From a virus, in UHGV virus genome UHGV-1351982: a stretch of DNA of 64,000 nucleotides; one strand, written 5' to 3'. This document shows positions 4,826-39,411 of the stretch, one piece after another; position 1 is the first letter of the stretch, and every line of letters begins with the position of its first letter. A program made the translations under genes and the position numbers. The notes below the pieces were generated by a model, which was not told the DNA's origin, did no database searches, and saw only the letters and a list, made by a program, of their open reading frames with translations.

Positions 4826-5236
4826 ATGACTACTCCAACTCAGTGGACTGATGAACTGTTCGAAAAAATGTCTTCCGACTACGTTGCTCGTATGGAGCAA
4901 TTCCCAGAAGATGAGCGTCCGGGCGTTAGCATGGAAATTGTTAGCGAAATTGCTCAGGAAAATGGTGTAACTCCGAATGGTTTCCGTATGAAGCTGACCA
5001 AAGCAGGTCTGTATATCAAGAAAGCTGCTGGCTCTACTTCTAAATCAAGCGCATCTACTGGAGAAAAAGCTTCTGGTGGTTCTCGTACTTCCAAAGCTCA
5101 GGCTCACTCCGATCTTCGCTCTGCATTCTCTGATGCTGGCTTAGCACCGGACTTCCTGGACGACGCAATCATCGACAAGCTGACCGGTAAAGCAGCTGCT
5201 CATCTGGCAGAAGCTATCCGAGCTATCACTAAGTAA
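4826..5236 (+). CDS. hypothetical early protein (host-like codon usage)
   Basis: 136 aa ORF, AAGGA RBS, conserved early promoter upstream; strong preference for ctg/cgt/ggt/ccg codons suggests high expression. Confidence 0.6.
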   Translation: MTTPTQWTDELFEKMSSDYVARMEQFPEDERPGVSMEIVSEIAQENGVTPNGFRMKLTKAGLYIKKAAGSTSKSSASTGEKASGGSRTSKAQAHSDLRSAFSDAGLAPDFLDDAIIDKLTGKAAAHLAEAIRAITK

Positions 5237-7178: not shown

Positions 7179-7320
7179 TTCGTAACCCTTTGCTACCCGT
7201 TTACCGTGTCGGAATTATAAAGTGGTTATTGACATTTTCGCCGCTTAGGTATATACTATTATCATTCAGTTGAGGGATAGAAAGTTATGGCGAGGGTAAG
7301 CAAAGTTAGTTAAAATTGTA

Positions 7321-7351
7321 GTTGCTAAATGCTTAAATACTTGCTATAATA
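7321..7351 (+). promoter_or_regulatory. sigma70-type early promoter (TTGCTA -35, TGCTATAAT -10) inside the split ligase locus
   Basis: 17-bp spacer; conserved downstream box ATTTATATAAATTGATAAGGAAG. Confidence 0.7.
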
Positions 7352-7380
7352 TTTATATAAATTGATAAGGAAGAAATTTG

Positions 7381-8160
7381 ATGAAAATCGAAATTCCAAC
7401 ACAATGTCCCTCTTGTGGTTCTAAGCTAGATCTTGTCAACGGGCAATTATTCTGTAGGAATAAGTCCAACTGTCCAGCGCAATCAAGTAAGTTAATCGAG
7501 AACTTCTGCACAAAAATGAAGTTAAAGGGCTTTGGCCCGAAAACTATTGAGAAGCTGGAGCTGACTAAGATCTCAGAACTGTTTTACCTGACCGAAGAAG
7601 ATTTGGTCGGAGCTGTGGGTAGCAAGGTTGCCGCTAAATTGATTAGCGAGTTAAATACTAAGGTTCGCGGAGACATTGACTTTGGTTCAGTTCTCGGTTC
7701 TTTAGGAATTCCTCTTATTGGAGAGGTTGCAGCAAAGAAACTGTCCCAAAATTGCACTAGCTTCCACGATGTGAAGGCTGACGGCAAGGCTGGAGAAAAT
7801 TACAAAACCTGGCTAAATTCCCCACAAGGCAAGGATGTTATTGAATTACCGTGGAAATTCTCAACAGGTATTCGAGGTGCTAAAGCGGATATCATCATTA
7901 CAGATGATTTAGTTGCCCAGCCAAATGGAATCACGGTCTGTATTACCGGATCTTTGCAAGATTTTGCAAATCGAACGGATGCAACAAACTATTTAGAAAG
8001 TCTAGGATATACGGTTAAGAAGTCCGTTACCAAAGACGTCAAATACCTAATCTGTGAGGATGAATCAAAACGTTCTTCCTCATCTTATAAGAAAGCCGAA
8101 ACGAATGGGATAGAAATCCTGTCGATTAAAGAACTATTGGAGAAAAATAATAATGTCTAA
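7381..8160 (+). CDS. NAD-dependent DNA ligase, C-terminal subunit (Zn finger / HhH / BRCT-like)
   Basis: Track ORF 7378-8160, ATG at 7381 after AAGGAAG; Cys4 motif (CPSCGS...CRNKSNCPAQ); own promoter upstream. Confidence 0.75.
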   Translation: MKIEIPTQCPSCGSKLDLVNGQLFCRNKSNCPAQSSKLIENFCTKMKLKGFGPKTIEKLELTKISELFYLTEEDLVGAVGSKVAAKLISELNTKVRGDIDFGSVLGSLGIPLIGEVAAKKLSQNCTSFHDVKADGKAGENYKTWLNSPQGKDVIELPWKFSTGIRGAKADIIITDDLVAQPNGITVCITGSLQDFANRTDATNYLESLGYTVKKSVTKDVKYLICEDESKRSSSSYKKAETNGIEILSIKELLEKNNNV

Positions 8161-8920
8161 ACTGAACTGGAACGTAGAAGGTGTAACCGAGTCTCTGAAA
8201 GCAAAAGCCACTGCTCTGGGTGTTGCTGTAATCTCTCAAGAACAAGTAGCTGCTATCGCTGCTGAACTGGCTACCGAGACTGGTAAAGACGTTACCGCTC
8301 GCTCTGTTGGCTCTAAGCTGCGTAAAGAAGGTTTCGAAGTACAGAAAGCAAACGAAGTACAGAAATCCCCGTGGACTCCTGAGCAGGAAGCTGAACTGGT
8401 TGATTTCCTGAACGCTCATGCTGGTCAGTATACTTACGCTGAAATCGCTGCTGCTGTAGCTGGTGGTCAGTTCGGTGCTAAGCAGGTACAGGGTAAGATC
8501 CTGAGTCTGGAAATGACTGCTTCTGTTAAGCCAACCGAAAAAGCTGCTGCTGTTCGTTCCTTCACTCCTGACGAAGAAACTGATTTCGTTAATCAGGTTG
8601 TTGCTGGTGCTACTATTGAAGCTATCGCTGCTCACTTCGGTCGCAATATTAAGCAGATCCGTGGTAAAGCTCTGAGTCTGCTTCGTGAAGGTCGTATCGC
8701 TGCTATGCCGGTACAGGAAACTTCAAGTGCTAAAACTCGTGAAGATCTGTTAGAAGGTCTGGATCTGGCTAACATGACTGTTGCTGAGATCGCTGAGAAA
8801 ACTGGTAAGTCTGAGCGCGGTGTTAAATCTATGCTGTCTCGTCGTGGTCTGGTTGCTAAGGACTATGATGGTGCCGCTAAGCGTGCTAAACTGGATGCAA
8901 AAGCTGCGGCTGCTGAATAA
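8153..8920 (+). CDS. DNA-binding protein with four tandem HTH-like repeats (possibly abundant early protein)
   Basis: 255 aa; four ~60 aa internal repeats each with an IAxxxG...K HTH-like core (e.g. TVAEIAEKTGKSERGVKSMLSRRG); host-optimal codon usage. Confidence 0.6.
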   Translation: MSKLNWNVEGVTESLKAKATALGVAVISQEQVAAIAAELATETGKDVTARSVGSKLRKEGFEVQKANEVQKSPWTPEQEAELVDFLNAHAGQYTYAEIAAAVAGGQFGAKQVQGKILSLEMTASVKPTEKAAAVRSFTPDEETDFVNQVVAGATIEAIAAHFGRNIKQIRGKALSLLREGRIAAMPVQETSSAKTREDLLEGLDLANMTVAEIAEKTGKSERGVKSMLSRRGLVAKDYDGAAKRAKLDAKAAAAE

Positions 8921-8937
8921 TCTGGTAAATTAAACCT

Positions 8938-8970
8938 AAGGGGAGGGGGCTATGCTCCTTCCCCTTTTTG
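8938..8970 (+). terminator. intrinsic terminator
   Basis: GC-rich hairpin (AAGGGGAGGGGG...CCTTCCCCTT) plus TTTTTG, directly after gene 8153-8920. Confidence 0.6.
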
Positions 8971-9002
8971 CATTTAGAAGGCACGAAAGCGTGCAAAGGA
9001 GA

Positions 9003-10475
9003 ATGACCTTGTTTAACGTGCAAGCTGTAGTGTTGAAGATGCTTCTCGCTTCTGAACAGAAGCAAATAGCATTGGAAACATTCTCAAAACTGCATAAAGA
9101 TCATTTTAATGACGCTTTCTCCTCAATTTACCAAGCCGTCCAGAATTATTATAAGAAATATAACGCAATGCCGTCCATTGACGCACTGATGCTTGAGGCC
9201 AATAGGAACGCCCGCCTTTCTCAAGCTCTTGTCGTCTTAGCTAACACTCAAATTCCAGAAGTGAGCATGGAACAGGCGCTTGAAGTCCTAGAAGCCGAAT
9301 ATACACAGGATCTATTCCTGAAACTTCTAGAAACAGACGTGCTTCAAGATTTAACAATGCTGGATCAGGGAGAAATTCTCAACCGAGTTGCCTCCCTTCA
9401 CTTAAAATTAGAAGAGAAAGTAACGAATACTGGAAAGGTATTCAACGCAGACACAATGCGTATTTTCCAGAGAGAAGAAGATACCAAACTGAACTTGATC
9501 GCTCTTGGTATTTGTAATGAGTTCGACGCTCAAATTGGTTTAGCTCGCACAGAAACGTTACTGCTTGGTGGTTGGCGTGGTACTGGTAAATCCATTATCT
9601 GTTCAAACATACAGGTTCAGCAATATTTGAATGGAGACATTGCTCCATATTTCTCAATTGAGATGAAAGAGCACGAAGTGTTTAGACGTAATCTGGCTAT
9701 GTTAGCTGGAGTATCTGCATTAGCAATGCGTAATAACACTCTTGAAGGTGCTGCTCTGTTGAGATTAGCCAGAACTAGGGCTAGAATGTTTAATGGTGGT
9801 GAAGAGCTTTTCGATAACTTCGTTAAGCAATACACTATGGCTAAAATGAGTGACTTCTATGATATGGAAAGTAAACTCCTTGAAGGCTATGAGCTTCACA
9901 CTCCTATGATCATCGTTTACGATCCTGAACTGTCTATTACGACGGTTGACGTAGAATTAAATAAACTAGTTGCTAAATATGGTGATAAGGTTACTGTAGC
10001 TCTTCTAGACTATATTAACCAAACAAGACTTCCAGATTCAAAGACCATTGATATGTATGACTGGAAAGAACAGATGGTTGTTAGTTCATCTTTCAAATCT
10101 ATATGCCAGAAACATAACGTGGCTGGTGTTGCCCCTTACCAGATTGACCAAGATGGTAGAACGCGTATGTCTAAAGGGATTCTTGATTCCGCAGATATGG
10201 CTGCTAATCTTAACGCTGCAAAAGCTGATAATGGTCAAGGTGCTATTATGTTTGATTTCGTTAAGACTCGTTCCTCTGATAGTGTGAAGTTTATGCCTAA
10301 GATGAACTGGGAAACTCTACGAATGGATAACACTACCAACCTAGCAATGGAAGATATTGCGCAAATGGAAGCTGAGTTCGTTATTCCTATTGAAAAGGAT
10401 AAACCAGCTCAACCTAAACGTGCTAAGAAAGACAAAGCTGAAAATTCAACAGGTGAACAGGCCAGCGATATATGA
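9003..10475 (+). CDS. replicative DNA helicase (DnaB-like)
   Basis: Track ORF 8952-10475; ATG 9003 follows AAAGGAG and clears the upstream terminator hairpin; P-loop GGWRGTGKS; immediately precedes primase. Confidence 0.75.
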   Translation: MTLFNVQAVVLKMLLASEQKQIALETFSKLHKDHFNDAFSSIYQAVQNYYKKYNAMPSIDALMLEANRNARLSQALVVLANTQIPEVSMEQALEVLEAEYTQDLFLKLLETDVLQDLTMLDQGEILNRVASLHLKLEEKVTNTGKVFNADTMRIFQREEDTKLNLIALGICNEFDAQIGLARTETLLLGGWRGTGKSIICSNIQVQQYLNGDIAPYFSIEMKEHEVFRRNLAMLAGVSALAMRNNTLEGAALLRLARTRARMFNGGEELFDNFVKQYTMAKMSDFYDMESKLLEGYELHTPMIIVYDPELSITTVDVELNKLVAKYGDKVTVALLDYINQTRLPDSKTIDMYDWKEQMVVSSSFKSICQKHNVAGVAPYQIDQDGRTRMSKGILDSADMAANLNAAKADNGQGAIMFDFVKTRSSDSVKFMPKMNWETLRMDNTTNLAMEDIAQMEAEFVIPIEKDKPAQPKRAKKDKAENSTGEQASDI

Positions 10476-15971: not shown

Positions 15972-16334
15972 ATGAAATTCTTTGATTACGAGAGAATTTA
16001 CCTCTTAGCTAGAGGAAACTCCGACCTGATTGTCAAGCTATTTAATAGAATGCTTGCAGAGCCTGATGCTCACCAGTTACTGGTCGGTTCTTCATTCATC
16101 TTGAATGAATCAACTATTGTTGATAACCCTTACAAATTGTCTAATAGACAACTGGCAGAATATCTAGGAATTCTAAGTCTACGAAATTATGCCGAATATA
16201 AGTTTACAAACGATCCGAGTTTGGACATGCAATATGTTCCCATATGGATACCACGTTCTGTAATCGACACTAACCCACTAATTGCAATCAATAAATCGAA
16301 GATAATCTTTAAAGAGGAAATAAAATATGGCTAA
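15972..16334 (+). CDS. hypothetical protein
   Basis: 120 aa ORF downstream of tandem conserved promoters. Confidence 0.55.
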   Translation: MKFFDYERIYLLARGNSDLIVKLFNRMLAEPDAHQLLVGSSFILNESTIVDNPYKLSNRQLAEYLGILSLRNYAEYKFTNDPSLDMQYVPIWIPRSVIDTNPLIAINKSKIIFKEEIKYG

Positions 16335-17100
16335 GTCTTGGGGCGAAACTACTGGCGGTTCTAACGATAAAATCGACTTCCTGAAATTCAACAACGGTGT
16401 AACTCGTGTTCGTATCGTTTCTGGTGTTCTTCCACGTTATGTCTACTGGCTGACTAACAAAGATGGTAATGCAGCTCCGTTTGAGTGCCTGCGTTTCAAC
16501 CGTACTAAAGAGAGCTTCGTTCGCGGTAAAGCTGACCCGATTCACGAAATGGGCTTCTTCGAGAAAGAGCTGGACAAAGATGGTAATCGTGTTCCGCTGA
16601 AACCGAAGAAAAACTACATCGCTTTCGTTATCGACCGTTCTGATAACAAACTGAAAGTTATGGAAGTTAAAGCTACTATCCTGAAAGGCATCCAGTCTAT
16701 CATGAAGCAGCTGAAACTGTCCGACCCGTTCGATATCGATATTTCTATCGAGAAGAAAGGTAAAGGCTTCGATACTGAGTACGATGTACAGCAGATCGCA
16801 GCAATGCAGTTCCAGATGGCTCTGAAAGATCCTACTAGCGCAGAAGCTAAACTGCACGCCGCAGATGCCGATATTCTCGGTGAAGCTATGTGTGATGATA
16901 CTGGTGAGTTCATCAAGTTTGAAAAAGTTCCTTCTCTGGAAGAAACCTACCCGGTTCCGTCCTACGAAGAGCAGAAAGAAGCTATTCTCGCCTTCATGGA
17001 AGGTCGTGAGAAGCAAGACGGCGGTGACGCTAAGTCTGGTGGTGATGCTGGTTCTCAGAAAGGCATCGACGCTGAAGCTGCTAGCGATCTGGACGACTAA
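16327..17100 (+). CDS. hypothetical abundant protein with acidic C-terminal tail (possible ssDNA-binding protein)
   Basis: 257 aa; AGAGGAAA RBS; host-optimal codon usage; acidic C-terminus (EAASDLDD) as in many SSBs; followed by intrinsic terminator. Function is inference. Confidence 0.55.
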   Translation: MAKSWGETTGGSNDKIDFLKFNNGVTRVRIVSGVLPRYVYWLTNKDGNAAPFECLRFNRTKESFVRGKADPIHEMGFFEKELDKDGNRVPLKPKKNYIAFVIDRSDNKLKVMEVKATILKGIQSIMKQLKLSDPFDIDISIEKKGKGFDTEYDVQQIAAMQFQMALKDPTSAEAKLHAADADILGEAMCDDTGEFIKFEKVPSLEETYPVPSYEEQKEAILAFMEGREKQDGGDAKSGGDAGSQKGIDAEAASDLDD

Positions 17101-38037: not shown

Positions 38038-39411
38038 TTAAGCAGCGTAAGCACCAGATACAACGCCGTTTTCGAAGTAACGTTGCAGGTTAACACGCTG
38101 AGTAACGTAGTATGCGTCACGCTGTTTTCCAGCTTGGCGCTCACGTTCAACAGTAACAGCACGCTGACGCGGCATTACGAAGTTATCTTTGTAAACAATA
38201 ACTGCGAATTCAGCGGAAGCAGCTTTAGCTGGGAAGTACTCAGAAACTACAACCGGTAGACCGTAAATACGACCAACCTGACCCTGCAGTTTAACAGCAT
38301 CATTACCAACCTGGGCAACATCCTGCCATTCTTCATCTTCCAGCAGATCGTAGTAAGCATCCATAGATACGATCAGTACCAGTTTACTCAGTTTCAAACC
38401 ATGACGGCCCAGTTTACGACGCAGCTTGGAGATAGTCTTAGCAGTTACCAGAACAGAACCGTCAGCTTTAGCTTCGGTAACAACCTTAGCACCATCATCA
38501 GCAGCCAGTTTCAGCAGACCCTTAGGCTGACCAGTACCATTACCAGACATGAAAGCTTCTTCGATAGAAACAGCGTGTGCTTCGATCAGACGCTTACGCA
38601 GCAGAGGCAGCAGGGAGAAGATTGCATCTTCTTCAGTTTCATCAGTGATGAAGGATTTAGCAGCCAGCTTGTAAGTTTTGAAGCTGATTTCAGTCAGTTG
38701 ACCTTTAACTTCGTCACCAACAGTTTCGTCAGTACCGAATTTGGAAGCGTCTACCCAAGTAGCACGACCAGCTTCTGGTTCAACGAGCATAGTAAGAATT
38801 TTGCTGGACATTGGCAGTTCATCGAACAGTGCACCAACTACCAGTTCCTTCTGCAGGTCACGGATAATACGGGTAGAGAAGATAGTTTCGTATGCTTCGC
38901 TAGACATGGAAACGGAAGAAGAACCGTTAACAGCTTTAACGTGAGCCTTACCATGTTCAGTTTCGAATACGTCCTTCTCCATCATATAAGACAGAAGAAC
39001 CAGTTTCTCAACTTCATCCTCGAAAGCATCCTGAGTGCCATAAAGAGCTTTAGCTACGCTATCACCAACGAAGGAACGACCTTCACGAGCTGCCAACAGA
39101 GACTTGATTTCGTCCTGAAGACCAACGATGGTTTCCTGTTGCTTTTCTACAGTCTGTGCAAACAATTCTGCGCTCTTCTTAGACTTCTCGTCCAGGTTCT
39201 TAACCAGATCCAGAGCTTCTTCCAGACGCTTACGGTCTTCACCAACAGCTTTAGATACTAGGTCGTTCATACGAGCCAGTTCTTTTTCTTCCTGCTCTTC
39301 ACGCAGACGCTTAGCTTCCGCAGCTTTCTGAGCAGCAGTCAGACCTTCCAGAGATTTAGCCAGATCACCCAGACCAAGTTCTTCCTTCAGCTTATTAATA
39401 TCAATAGTCAT
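38038..39411 (-). CDS. major capsid protein (T5 pb8-like)
   Basis: 457 aa (T5 pb8 recalled as 458 aa); host-optimal codon usage; follows protease gene; intrinsic terminator downstream. Confidence 0.85.
   Translation of the reverse strand: MTIDINKLKEELGLGDLAKSLEGLTAAQKAAEAKRLREEQEEKELARMNDLVSKAVGEDRKRLEEALDLVKNLDEKSKKSAELFAQTVEKQQETIVGLQDEIKSLLAAREGRSFVGDSVAKALYGTQDAFEDEVEKLVLLSYMMEKDVFETEHGKAHVKAVNGSSSVSMSSEAYETIFSTRIIRDLQKELVVGALFDELPMSSKILTMLVEPEAGRATWVDASKFGTDETVGDEVKGQLTEISFKTYKLAAKSFITDETEEDAIFSLLPLLRKRLIEAHAVSIEEAFMSGNGTGQPKGLLKLAADDGAKVVTEAKADGSVLVTAKTISKLRRKLGRHGLKLSKLVLIVSMDAYYDLLEDEEWQDVAQVGNDAVKLQGQVGRIYGLPVVVSEYFPAKAASAEFAVIVYKDNFVMPRQRAVTVERERQAGKQRDAYYVTQRVNLQRYFENGVVSGAYAA

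What the first reader, a model, noticed from the sequence alone, without database searches (positions are those of the whole stretch)
8153..8920. Highly expressed protein built from four tandem HTH-like repeats
The 255-aa product consists of four ~60-aa repeats, each with a sigma-region-4-like helix-turn-helix core (IAAELATETGKDV, IAAAVAGGQFGAKQV, IAAHFGRNIKQI, IAEKTGKSERGV), and uses strongly host-optimal codons. A tandem-HTH protein made in large amounts could be a DNA-coating protein or a transcription-switch factor; it may correspond to the abundant T5 D5 DNA-binding protein, but I cannot confirm that from memory.
Basis: partly seen in the sequence, partly recalled or inferred. Interest (0 to 1): 0.5.

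Follow-up and report, generated by a model that had tools for sequence, protein, structure and literature searches.

The report
T5 D5 DNA-binding protein, four HTH units

Summary
The ORF at 8153-8920 (+) is real, and its 255-aa product matches phage T5 protein D5 (T5.118) at 252 of 255 residues. T5's GenBank record annotates D5 as a DNA-binding protein required for replication and late transcription. The window is a T5-like Salmonella/Escherichia phage, and the gene sits where T5 has it, between ligase subunit B and the DnaB-like helicase. The four-repeat claim holds. All six unit pairs beat 40 of 40 column-shuffled controls, with units 2 and 3 strongest (hhalign probability 95.5%). An AlphaFold2 model (pLDDT 94.3) shows four three-helix HTH units plus a C-terminal helix. 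Family-invariant residues concentrate in the third helix of each unit (12 of 17, p = 5.6e-07). Calling the units sigma-region-4-like is too narrow, because only unit 4 passes a Pfam threshold; they are generic tri-helical HTH domains. The codon claim also holds: this gene has the highest CAI of 68 ORFs (0.714 against a mean of 0.316). Tandem promoter-like sites lie upstream and a terminator-like hairpin downstream, and a distant Vibrio phage keeps this layout. The most likely function is stoichiometric coating of phage duplex DNA. No D5 structure has been solved, and the four-unit architecture (five units in distant relatives) is a modest addition. Verdict: already known, low interest.

The parts
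7229..7257 (+). Sigma-70 promoter-like site (TTGACA-17-TATACT), at the position of T5 early promoter P-K 28b upstream of ligB
   Evidence: 11 of 12 consensus matches. T5 annotates promoters P-K 28b and 28a in the equivalent interval. The overall count of promoter-like sites in the region is not above chance, so this rests on position and on T5's annotation.
7322..7350 (+). Second promoter-like site (TTGCTA-17-TATAAT with an extended -10 TG), at the position of T5 P-K 28a
   Evidence: A similar tandem pair about 95 nt apart lies upstream of ligB in Vibrio phage PG07.
7381..8160 (+). NAD-dependent DNA ligase subunit B (ligB), the upstream gene; its end overlaps the D5 start by 8 nt, so the two are presumably co-transcribed
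8139..8142 (+). GGAG ribosome-binding site of D5, 10 nt before the ATG
   Evidence: Sequence. Phage Seafire annotates an RBS at the equivalent position.
8153..8920 (+). D5 coding sequence: 255 aa, 27.0 kDa, pI 6.8
   Evidence: 252 of 255 residues identical to T5.118. PHROG 323 at E = 1.5e-71.
8153..8356 (+). HTH unit 1 (aa 1-68); third helix ARSVGSKLRK with invariant R50, K55, L56 and R57
8357..8542 (+). HTH unit 2 (aa 69-130), Myb-like opening WTPEQE; third helix AKQVQGKILS with invariant Q113, G114, K115 and L117
   Evidence: DNA-level echoes of unit 3 at 171-189 nt spacing.
8543..8722 (+). HTH unit 3 (aa 131-190), opening FTPDEE; third helix IKQIRGKALSLLR with invariant G171 and K172
8723..8857 (+). 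HTH unit 4 (aa 191-235); the only unit above a Pfam threshold (Sigma70_r4_2); third helix ERGVKSMLSRR with invariant G223 and L228
8858..8917 (+). Conserved C-terminal amphipathic helix (aa 236-255, DYDGAAKRAKLDAKAAAAE); role unknown, possibly self-association or partner contact
   Evidence: helix 240-254. (G240 invariant; D237 and K246 at 90% or more).
8938..8976 (+). Intrinsic-terminator-like hairpin (13 pairs, 8 of them G-C) followed by a T-run, 18 nt after the D5 stop; it encloses the annotated RBS and ATG of the next gene, the D6 helicase
   Evidence: (-25.6 kcal/mol, z = -3.0, 0 of 200 shuffles fold as well). An equivalent hairpin follows D5 in Vibrio phage PG07.

Best explanation
This is gpD5, the abundant early duplex-DNA-binding protein of T5-like phages (Demerecviridae). 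One polypeptide carries four simple three-helix HTH domains in tandem plus a short C-terminal helix. Each domain has a conserved third helix carrying Gly and Lys/Arg residues, so a single monomer offers four DNA-contact modules. Made in stoichiometric amounts from the ligB-D5 early transcription unit, it most likely coats phage duplex DNA with little sequence specificity. By controlling how the DNA polymerase and host RNA polymerase reach the template, it would be needed for replication, for shutting off early genes and for turning on late genes.

Shown here: the identity with T5 D5, the four-unit architecture, the conservation pattern, the codon bias, the expression signals and the conserved position in the replication module. 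Taken from the T5 record and from the literature: DNA binding, and the requirement for replication and late transcription. Inferred: that all four units contact DNA, that binding is a non-specific coat, and that the regulatory effects follow from template occupancy.
For: Identity: 252 of 255 residues match T5.118 D5, with T5's annotation note. PHROG 323 'D5-like' matches at E = 1.5e-71, and many near-identical phage records annotate the gene as D5.

Conservation: 12 of the 17 invariant residues lie in the four third helices, which make up 44 of 255 residues (p = 5.6e-07). Counting near-invariant residues too gives 23 of 48 (p = 1.8e-08).

Bulk production: this gene has the highest CAI of 68 ORFs. 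The next three are the ssDNA-binding protein, the major head protein and the D3 DNA-binding protein, all needed in quantity rather than as catalysts. Promoter-like sites at the position of T5's annotated P-K 28b/a lie upstream and a terminator-like hairpin lies directly downstream, a layout also present in Vibrio phage PG07, whose D5 is 55% identical. D5 was among the most abundant proteins detected in virion preparations of the T5-like Yersinia phage phiR2-01 (PMC8624392).

Replication-module membership: the order ligase - D5 - DnaB-like helicase - primase - DNA polymerase is kept in T5, in Vibrio phage PG07 and in a distant metagenomic relative.

Nucleic-acid binding through an HTH, toxicity when expressed alone and a monomeric state (26 kDa by mass photometry) are reported for T5 D5 in bioRxiv 10.64898/2026.07.11.737809. 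Three of that study's four escape sites (G53, W74, G232) are at least 90% conserved in my alignment.

Host RNA polymerase purified from T5-infected cells carried gpA1, pb8 and gpT5.026, and D5 was not listed among them (PMC7472727). That fits action on the template rather than as an RNA polymerase subunit.
Against: No DNA-binding experiment or DNA complex was available here. The classical biochemistry papers are not in the held library, so cooperative binding to duplex DNA rests on my memory of Rice et al. 1979 and McCorquodale et al. 1979, and on the T5 record's note.

The protein is near-neutral overall (pI 6.8), which is unusual for a non-specific DNA coat. Evidence that units 1 and 4 are homologous to units 2 and 3 is statistical but weak (hhalign probabilities 5-58%). 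The model's pTM of 0.55 leaves the arrangement between units uncertain.

The retron preprint's model has D5 binding a DNA stem-loop, which hints at structure-specific rather than uniform binding. The same preprint reports a viable escaper with a stop codon at W74 of D5, which is hard to reconcile with an essential role. The CAI weights were entered from memory.
Confidence: 0.7

Rival explanations
1. D5 is a sequence-specific transcription factor or sigma-like appropriator. It would use its sigma-region-4-like HTH to redirect host RNA polymerase from early to late T5 promoters, and its replication phenotype would be secondary.
For: Unit 4 passes the Pfam Sigma70_r4_2 threshold. Many records call the protein a 'putative transcription factor D5' or 'D5-like transcriptional regulator'. 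T5's note says it is required for late transcription and early shutoff. Distant relatives P0237, P0259 and P0260 join a sigma/LuxR-type N-terminal region to D5-like units.
Against: No sigma region 2 or region 3 match reaches threshold, and the region 4 match covers only the 27-residue HTH core. Units 1-3 look no more like sigma than like Myb, resolvase or transposase HTH domains. A CAI equal to that of the SSB and the major capsid protein points to stoichiometric rather than regulatory amounts. D5 was not listed among the phage proteins co-purifying with RNA polymerase (PMC7472727). The gene is embedded in the replication module.
Confidence: 0.15
2. D5 is a structure-specific DNA binder. It would recognise nicks, gaps, forks or hairpins in T5's naturally nicked, replicating genome rather than coating plain duplex, and would organise replication and late transcription from those sites.
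Against: The Timeless match is not significant. The msdDNA contact is an AlphaFold3 prediction, not a solved complex. Very high expression fits coating better than recognition of a few sites. From memory, the classical work reported a preference for double-stranded DNA.
Confidence: 0.12
3. The four 'repeats' are a chance or compositional effect of an alanine-rich helical protein, with at most one real HTH.
For: Alanine makes up 17.6% of residues. Only one unit passes a Pfam threshold. The U2-U4 profile similarity is marginal (probability 4.7%).
Against: All six unit pairs beat 40 of 40 column-shuffled controls, which preserve composition, and all align in one register. The high-confidence model has four three-helix units. 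Conservation is in register in each third helix. Relatives have five units, and distant proteins carry 6-10 copies of the same module.
Confidence: 0.03

Closest known systems
Bacteriophage T5 gene D5 product (T5.118, AAS77164.1)
   Same: 252 of 255 residues are identical and the length is the same. The position between ligB and the D6 helicase is the same, as are the upstream promoter positions. It has the same PHROG family, 323.
   Different: Three substitutions only: A25D, T41A and A206V, written as window residue then T5 residue. The window's phage also lacks T5's hegJ homing-endonuclease gene further downstream.
Myb/SANT-type and Timeless-type tandem three-helix DNA-binding repeats
   Different: Pfam Myb_DNA-binding scores 17.8 bits against a cut-off of 24.4. 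The Timeless sequence match has E = 0.07. The regularly spaced tryptophan triad of Myb repeats (own knowledge) is absent, and only the first aromatic residue is kept.
GcrA DNA-binding domain (PDB 5yiu)
   Different: GcrA has one such domain plus a sigma-70-interacting domain (own knowledge), whereas D5 has four. Pfam GcrA does not match D5 at all, and matches relatives only below threshold.
Sigma-70 region 4 (Pfam PF08281 / PF04545)
   Same: The HTH core of unit 4 passes the PF08281 threshold.
   Different: Only 27 of 54 profile positions are covered. PF04545 is below threshold (18.3 against 24.1). No sigma region 2 or 3 reaches threshold, and units 1-3 do not match. D5 is not a sigma factor.
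Phage phi29 protein p6 and similar abundant phage histone-like dsDNA-binding proteins (analogy from my own knowledge, not tested here)
   Same: p6 is also an abundant early protein that binds duplex DNA, is needed for replication, and contributes to early repression and the early-to-late switch.
   Different: There is no sequence or fold relationship. p6 is a small protein that multimerises, whereas D5 carries four HTH modules in one chain.

Membership tests
T5 D5 protein family (PHROG 323) | Full-length sequence match to the family and to the T5 prototype | tested here: met
   phrog_323 at E = 1.5e-71 over aa 1-253; 252 of 255 residues identical to T5.118.
T5 D5 protein family (PHROG 323) | Location in the early replication module of a Demerecviridae genome, upstream of the DnaB-like helicase, primase and DNA polymerase | tested here: met
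   The window has ligA, ligB, D5, helicase, primase. The order is the same in T5, in Vibrio phage PG07 and in a distant metagenomic relative.
T5 D5 protein family (PHROG 323) | Binds double-stranded DNA | not testable with these tools
   This rests on the T5 record's note, on a citation of McCorquodale et al. 1979 and on my own recollection of Rice et al. 1979. HTH folds and conserved basic third helices are consistent with it.
T5 D5 protein family (PHROG 323) | Required for DNA replication, late transcription and early shutoff | not testable with these tools
   T5 annotation note. The classical genetics papers are not held in the library.
T5 D5 protein family (PHROG 323) | Abundant early protein | tested here: met
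   The evidence is indirect. CAI ranks 1 of 68 ORFs. Promoter-like sites at the position of T5's P-K 28b/a lie upstream and a terminator-like hairpin lies downstream. D5 was abundant in phiR2-01 virion-preparation proteomics.
Sigma-70 family sigma factors | Region 4 HTH | tested here: inconclusive
   PF08281 scores 29.1 bits for the whole protein and 26.9 for unit 4 alone, against a cut-off of 25.7, but over only 27 of 54 positions. PF04545 scores 18.3 against 24.1.
Sigma-70 family sigma factors | Region 2 (core binding and -10 recognition) | tested here: not met
   No Sigma70_r2 match even at E up to 10. NCBIfam sigma70-ECF scores 15 bits against a cut-off of 42.9.
Myb/SANT repeat proteins | Pfam Myb_DNA-binding or Myb_DNA-bind_6 match above threshold | tested here: not met
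GcrA family | Pfam GcrA (PF07750) match | tested here: not met

The most novel reading that the evidence does not exclude
D5 could be a modular 'phage chromatin' protein. Its four HTH units (five in distant relatives) would track along the duplex, and the conserved C-terminal helix would link neighbouring monomers into a coat. That coat would mark replicating phage DNA and would itself be the early-to-late transcription switch. On this reading, host retrons sense D5 precisely because the coat is abundant and hard for the phage to give up.
Probability: 0.2. Interest if true: 0.5.

Novelty: already known. Interest (0 to 1): 0.2.

Why it matters
D5 is one of the oldest genetically defined T5 functions, yet it has no solved structure and no molecular mechanism, and how T5 switches from early to late transcription is still open (PMC7472727). 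Showing that the protein is four tandem HTH modules, each with its own conserved recognition helix, gives concrete mutants and truncations to test. It also puts into context the 2026 report that D5 triggers a type IX retron. For genome scanning, however, this is a correctly guessed, already annotated gene.

Tried and rejected
- **Classical papers not held.** PMC353123 and PMC355262 are not in the library. Several literature queries failed on the three-character rule or returned only tumour protein D52 noise.
- **No solved relative by sequence.** A PDB sequence search with the protein found nothing significant. With the family profile, the best hits were a designed engrailed homeodomain at E = 0.002 and Timeless at E = 0.07.
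- **No whole-chain fold match.** Foldseek against the PDB gave a best E of 0.1. The BFVD viral library matched the whole chain only to D5 orthologues.
- **NCBIfam** has no model for the protein.
- **Failed scripts.** read the wrong hhalign column and was repeated.
- **Short contig.** Genomic context for the sigma-plus-repeat relative P0237 was too short to use.
- **Recent duplication rejected.** Only short echoes of 73-74% identity at 171-189 nt spacing exist between units 2 and 3 at the DNA level, so the duplication is old.

Full report
**1. What is there.** An ORF runs from ATG 8153 to a TAA stop ending at 8920 on the + strand and encodes 255 aa. The product is 27.0 kDa, has pI 6.8 and is 17.6% alanine. 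A GGAG lies 10 nt upstream of the ATG, and the start overlaps the end of the preceding gene by 8 nt.

**2. Where the window comes from.** The 2.6 kb around the gene is 99.8-99.9% identical to many T5-like Salmonella, Escherichia and Klebsiella phages of the family Demerecviridae. The protein matches T5.118, 'D5 protein', in the T5 reference genome AY543070 at 252 of 255 residues. That record's note reads 'DNA-binding protein; required for DNA replication and late transcription; also is involved in shutoff of expression of ...'. PHROG 323, 'transcriptional regulator, D5-like', matches over the full length at E = 1.5e-71. Gene order is as in T5: ligA, ligB, D5, DnaB-like helicase D6, primase, DNA polymerase.

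**3. Are the repeats real?** Yes, though their strength is uneven.
- On the single sequence, the best off-diagonal local alignment scores 55 against 35.0 +/- 5.6 in shuffles, reached by 1 of 200 shuffles.
- I built a 67-sequence family alignment spanning 50-81% identity to the query, cut it at residues 68, 130 and 190, and compared the pieces with hhalign.
- Units 2 and 3 are clearly homologous: probability 95.5%, score 41.5, 56 aligned columns.
- The other pairs score 16.6-24.9, with probabilities of 5-58%. Column-shuffled controls average 9-10 with sd about 2, and none of 40 reached the observed score for any pair.
- All alignments share one register: an opening aromatic residue (W6, W74, F137), an 'xxIAxx' second helix, and a basic third helix.
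- HMMs built from one unit recover unit 2 from unit 3 (12.9 bits) and the other units only weakly.
- At the DNA level only short echoes of 73-74% identity remain between units 2 and 3, at 171-189 nt spacing, so the duplication is old.

**4. Fold.** AlphaFold2 on the family alignment gives mean pLDDT 94.3 and pTM 0.55. The model contains four three-helix units and a C-terminal helix at residues 240-254.
- Foldseek finds no whole-chain match in the PDB; the best E-value is 0.1.
- In the viral structure library the whole chain matches only D5 orthologues (Vibrio phage D5, TM 0.70). Other phage multi-HTH proteins match at TM about 0.2.
- By sequence, only unit 4 passes a Pfam threshold: Sigma70_r4_2 at 26.9-29.1 bits against a cut-off of 25.7, over 27 of 54 positions. 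Units 1-3 give sub-threshold hits to HTH_33, Tc3, Myb, HTH_32, EutK_C, HTH_28 and HTH_23.
- The units are therefore generic simple tri-helical HTH domains. 'Sigma-region-4-like' is one of several equally good labels, and the protein is not a sigma factor, because no region 2 is present.

**5. Conservation points to four working DNA-contact helices.** Of 17 invariant residues in the family, 12 fall within the four third helices, which together make up 44 of 255 residues (p = 5.6e-07). Adding positions conserved at 90% or more gives 23 of 48 (p = 1.8e-08). The first and second helices show no such enrichment. The conserved residues are mostly Gly, Lys and Arg: R50, K55 and R57; Q113, G114 and K115; G171 and K172; G223.

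**6. Expression.** The codon claim holds. CAI is 0.714, the highest of 68 ORFs in the window (mean 0.316, sd 0.123).
- The next three ORFs by CAI are the ssDNA-binding protein (0.693), the major head protein (0.684) and the D3 DNA-binding protein (0.632). D5 thus groups with proteins needed in stoichiometric amounts.
- Two promoter-like sites lie upstream of ligB, at 7229-7257 and 7322-7350, where T5 annotates promoters P-K 28b and 28a.
- A 13-bp GC-rich hairpin with a T-run starts 18 nt after the D5 stop. It folds at -25.6 kcal/mol with z = -3.0.
- Vibrio phage PG07, whose D5 is 55% identical, has the same layout of tandem promoter-like sites, ligB, D5 and a hairpin with a T-run.
- In the T5-like Yersinia phage phiR2-01, D5 was among the most abundant proteins detected in virion preparations (PMC8624392).

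**7. Family extent.** An exhaustive profile search found 573 representative proteins at E up to 0.001, and 77 at E up to 1e-30.
- Most are D5 orthologues of 240-255 aa.
- P0182 and P0193 have five units. P0182 lies in a distant T5-like replication module: an unsplit NAD-dependent ligase, dNMP kinase, T5-type nicking endonuclease, dUTPase, the D5-like gene, a small ORF, DnaB, primase and PolA.
- More distant hits carry 6-10 copies of a similar module, which Pfam calls Myb, HTH_7 or HTH_23. Three proteins join a sigma/LuxR-type N-terminal region to D5-like units.
- Unit number therefore varies while the position next to the replicative helicase is kept.

**8. What the literature adds.** A July 2026 preprint (bioRxiv 10.64898/2026.07.11.737809) reports several things about the 255-residue T5 D5.
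- It triggers the type IX retron-Kva2.
- It is toxic when expressed alone.
- It is a 26 kDa monomer by mass photometry.
- AlphaFold3 predicts that it binds the msdDNA stem-loop through 'a helix-turn-helix motif'.
- Escape mutations were G53D, W74*, V149I and G232D. Three of those four sites are at least 90% conserved in my alignment.
- The passages I read do not describe a four-unit architecture.

A 2020 study of T5 transcription states that the early-to-late switch mechanism is unknown. It lists gpA1, pb8 and gpT5.026 as the phage proteins found with purified RNA polymerase, and D5 is not among them (PMC7472727). The classical D5 papers are not in the held library. My statement that gpD5 binds duplex DNA cooperatively comes from memory of Rice et al. 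1979 (J Biol Chem) and McCorquodale et al. 1979 (J Virol 29:322); only the latter's title is confirmed here, through a citation.

**9. Most likely mechanism.** D5 is a stoichiometric duplex-DNA-binding protein of the replication module. Its four HTH modules each contact DNA through a conserved third helix, and the conserved C-terminal helix is a candidate for contacts between monomers or with partners. Occupying the template would modulate access by the polymerases. That would explain the combined replication, early-shutoff and late-activation phenotypes.
- My confidence in the identity is about 0.98.
- My confidence in the coating mechanism is about 0.6.
- The rivals are a sequence-specific transcription factor or sigma-like factor (0.15), a structure-specific binder of nicks, forks or hairpins (0.12), and chance repeats (0.03, effectively excluded).

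**10. Verdict.** The protein is already known and is annotated in many records. The additions from this analysis are the statistically supported four-unit tri-helical HTH architecture, the conservation of each third helix, the five-unit variants, and a transcription-unit layout shared with a distant Vibrio phage relative. These are useful for designing experiments but would not surprise a specialist.

Noticed in passing
window 8938-9020: The terminator-like hairpin after D5 encloses the annotated RBS (GGAGG 8942-8946) and start codon (ATG 8952) of the D6 DnaB-like helicase, a start used by both the T5 and Seafire annotations. Either the helicase RBS is occluded by the hairpin, or the true start is one of the in-frame codons downstream (ATG 9003, TTG 9009, GTG 9018). 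In Vibrio phage PG07 the equivalent hairpin lies wholly upstream of the helicase start.
   Followed up: partly
window 16327-17100 (+), 38038-39411 (-), 4826-5236 (+): After D5, the most codon-optimised ORFs in the window are the ssDNA-binding protein (CAI 0.693, phrog_1607), the major head protein (0.684) and the D3 DNA-binding protein (0.632). All other ORFs are at 0.52 or below.
   Followed up: partly
window 10472-10475: The helicase and primase genes overlap directly. T5 has the HNH homing-endonuclease gene hegJ between them, so this phage lacks that insertion.
   Followed up: no
L004 2436-8621: A distant T5-like replication module encodes a five-unit D5-like protein (P0182, 283 aa) next to an unsplit 596-aa NAD-dependent ligase, whereas T5 and this window have the ligase split into ligA and ligB. 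A T5-type nicking endonuclease and a dUTPase lie immediately upstream of the D5-like gene.
   Followed up: partly
proteins P0237, P0259, P0260 (L006 305-2014 for P0237): These proteins of 355-569 aa join an N-terminal sigma/LuxR-type region (GerE and Sigma70_r4 above Pfam threshold) to one D5 unit-2-like unit and several unit-3-like units. The only contig recovered was too short to show genomic context.
   Followed up: partly
D5 residue W74 = window 8372-8374: The retron-Kva2 preprint reports a viable T5 escaper carrying a stop codon at W74 of D5 together with three missense changes. D5 is classically an essential replication gene, so this is unexplained; a mixed population, suppression or a sequencing artefact are possibilities.
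   Followed up: no
window 7300-9900 versus public records: Records labelled 'Campylobacter phage A148' (99.8% nucleotide identity) and partial 'Enterococcus faecalis' proteins (99% identical to D5) carry this T5-like sequence. They are most likely host mislabelling or contamination in those deposits.
   Followed up: no
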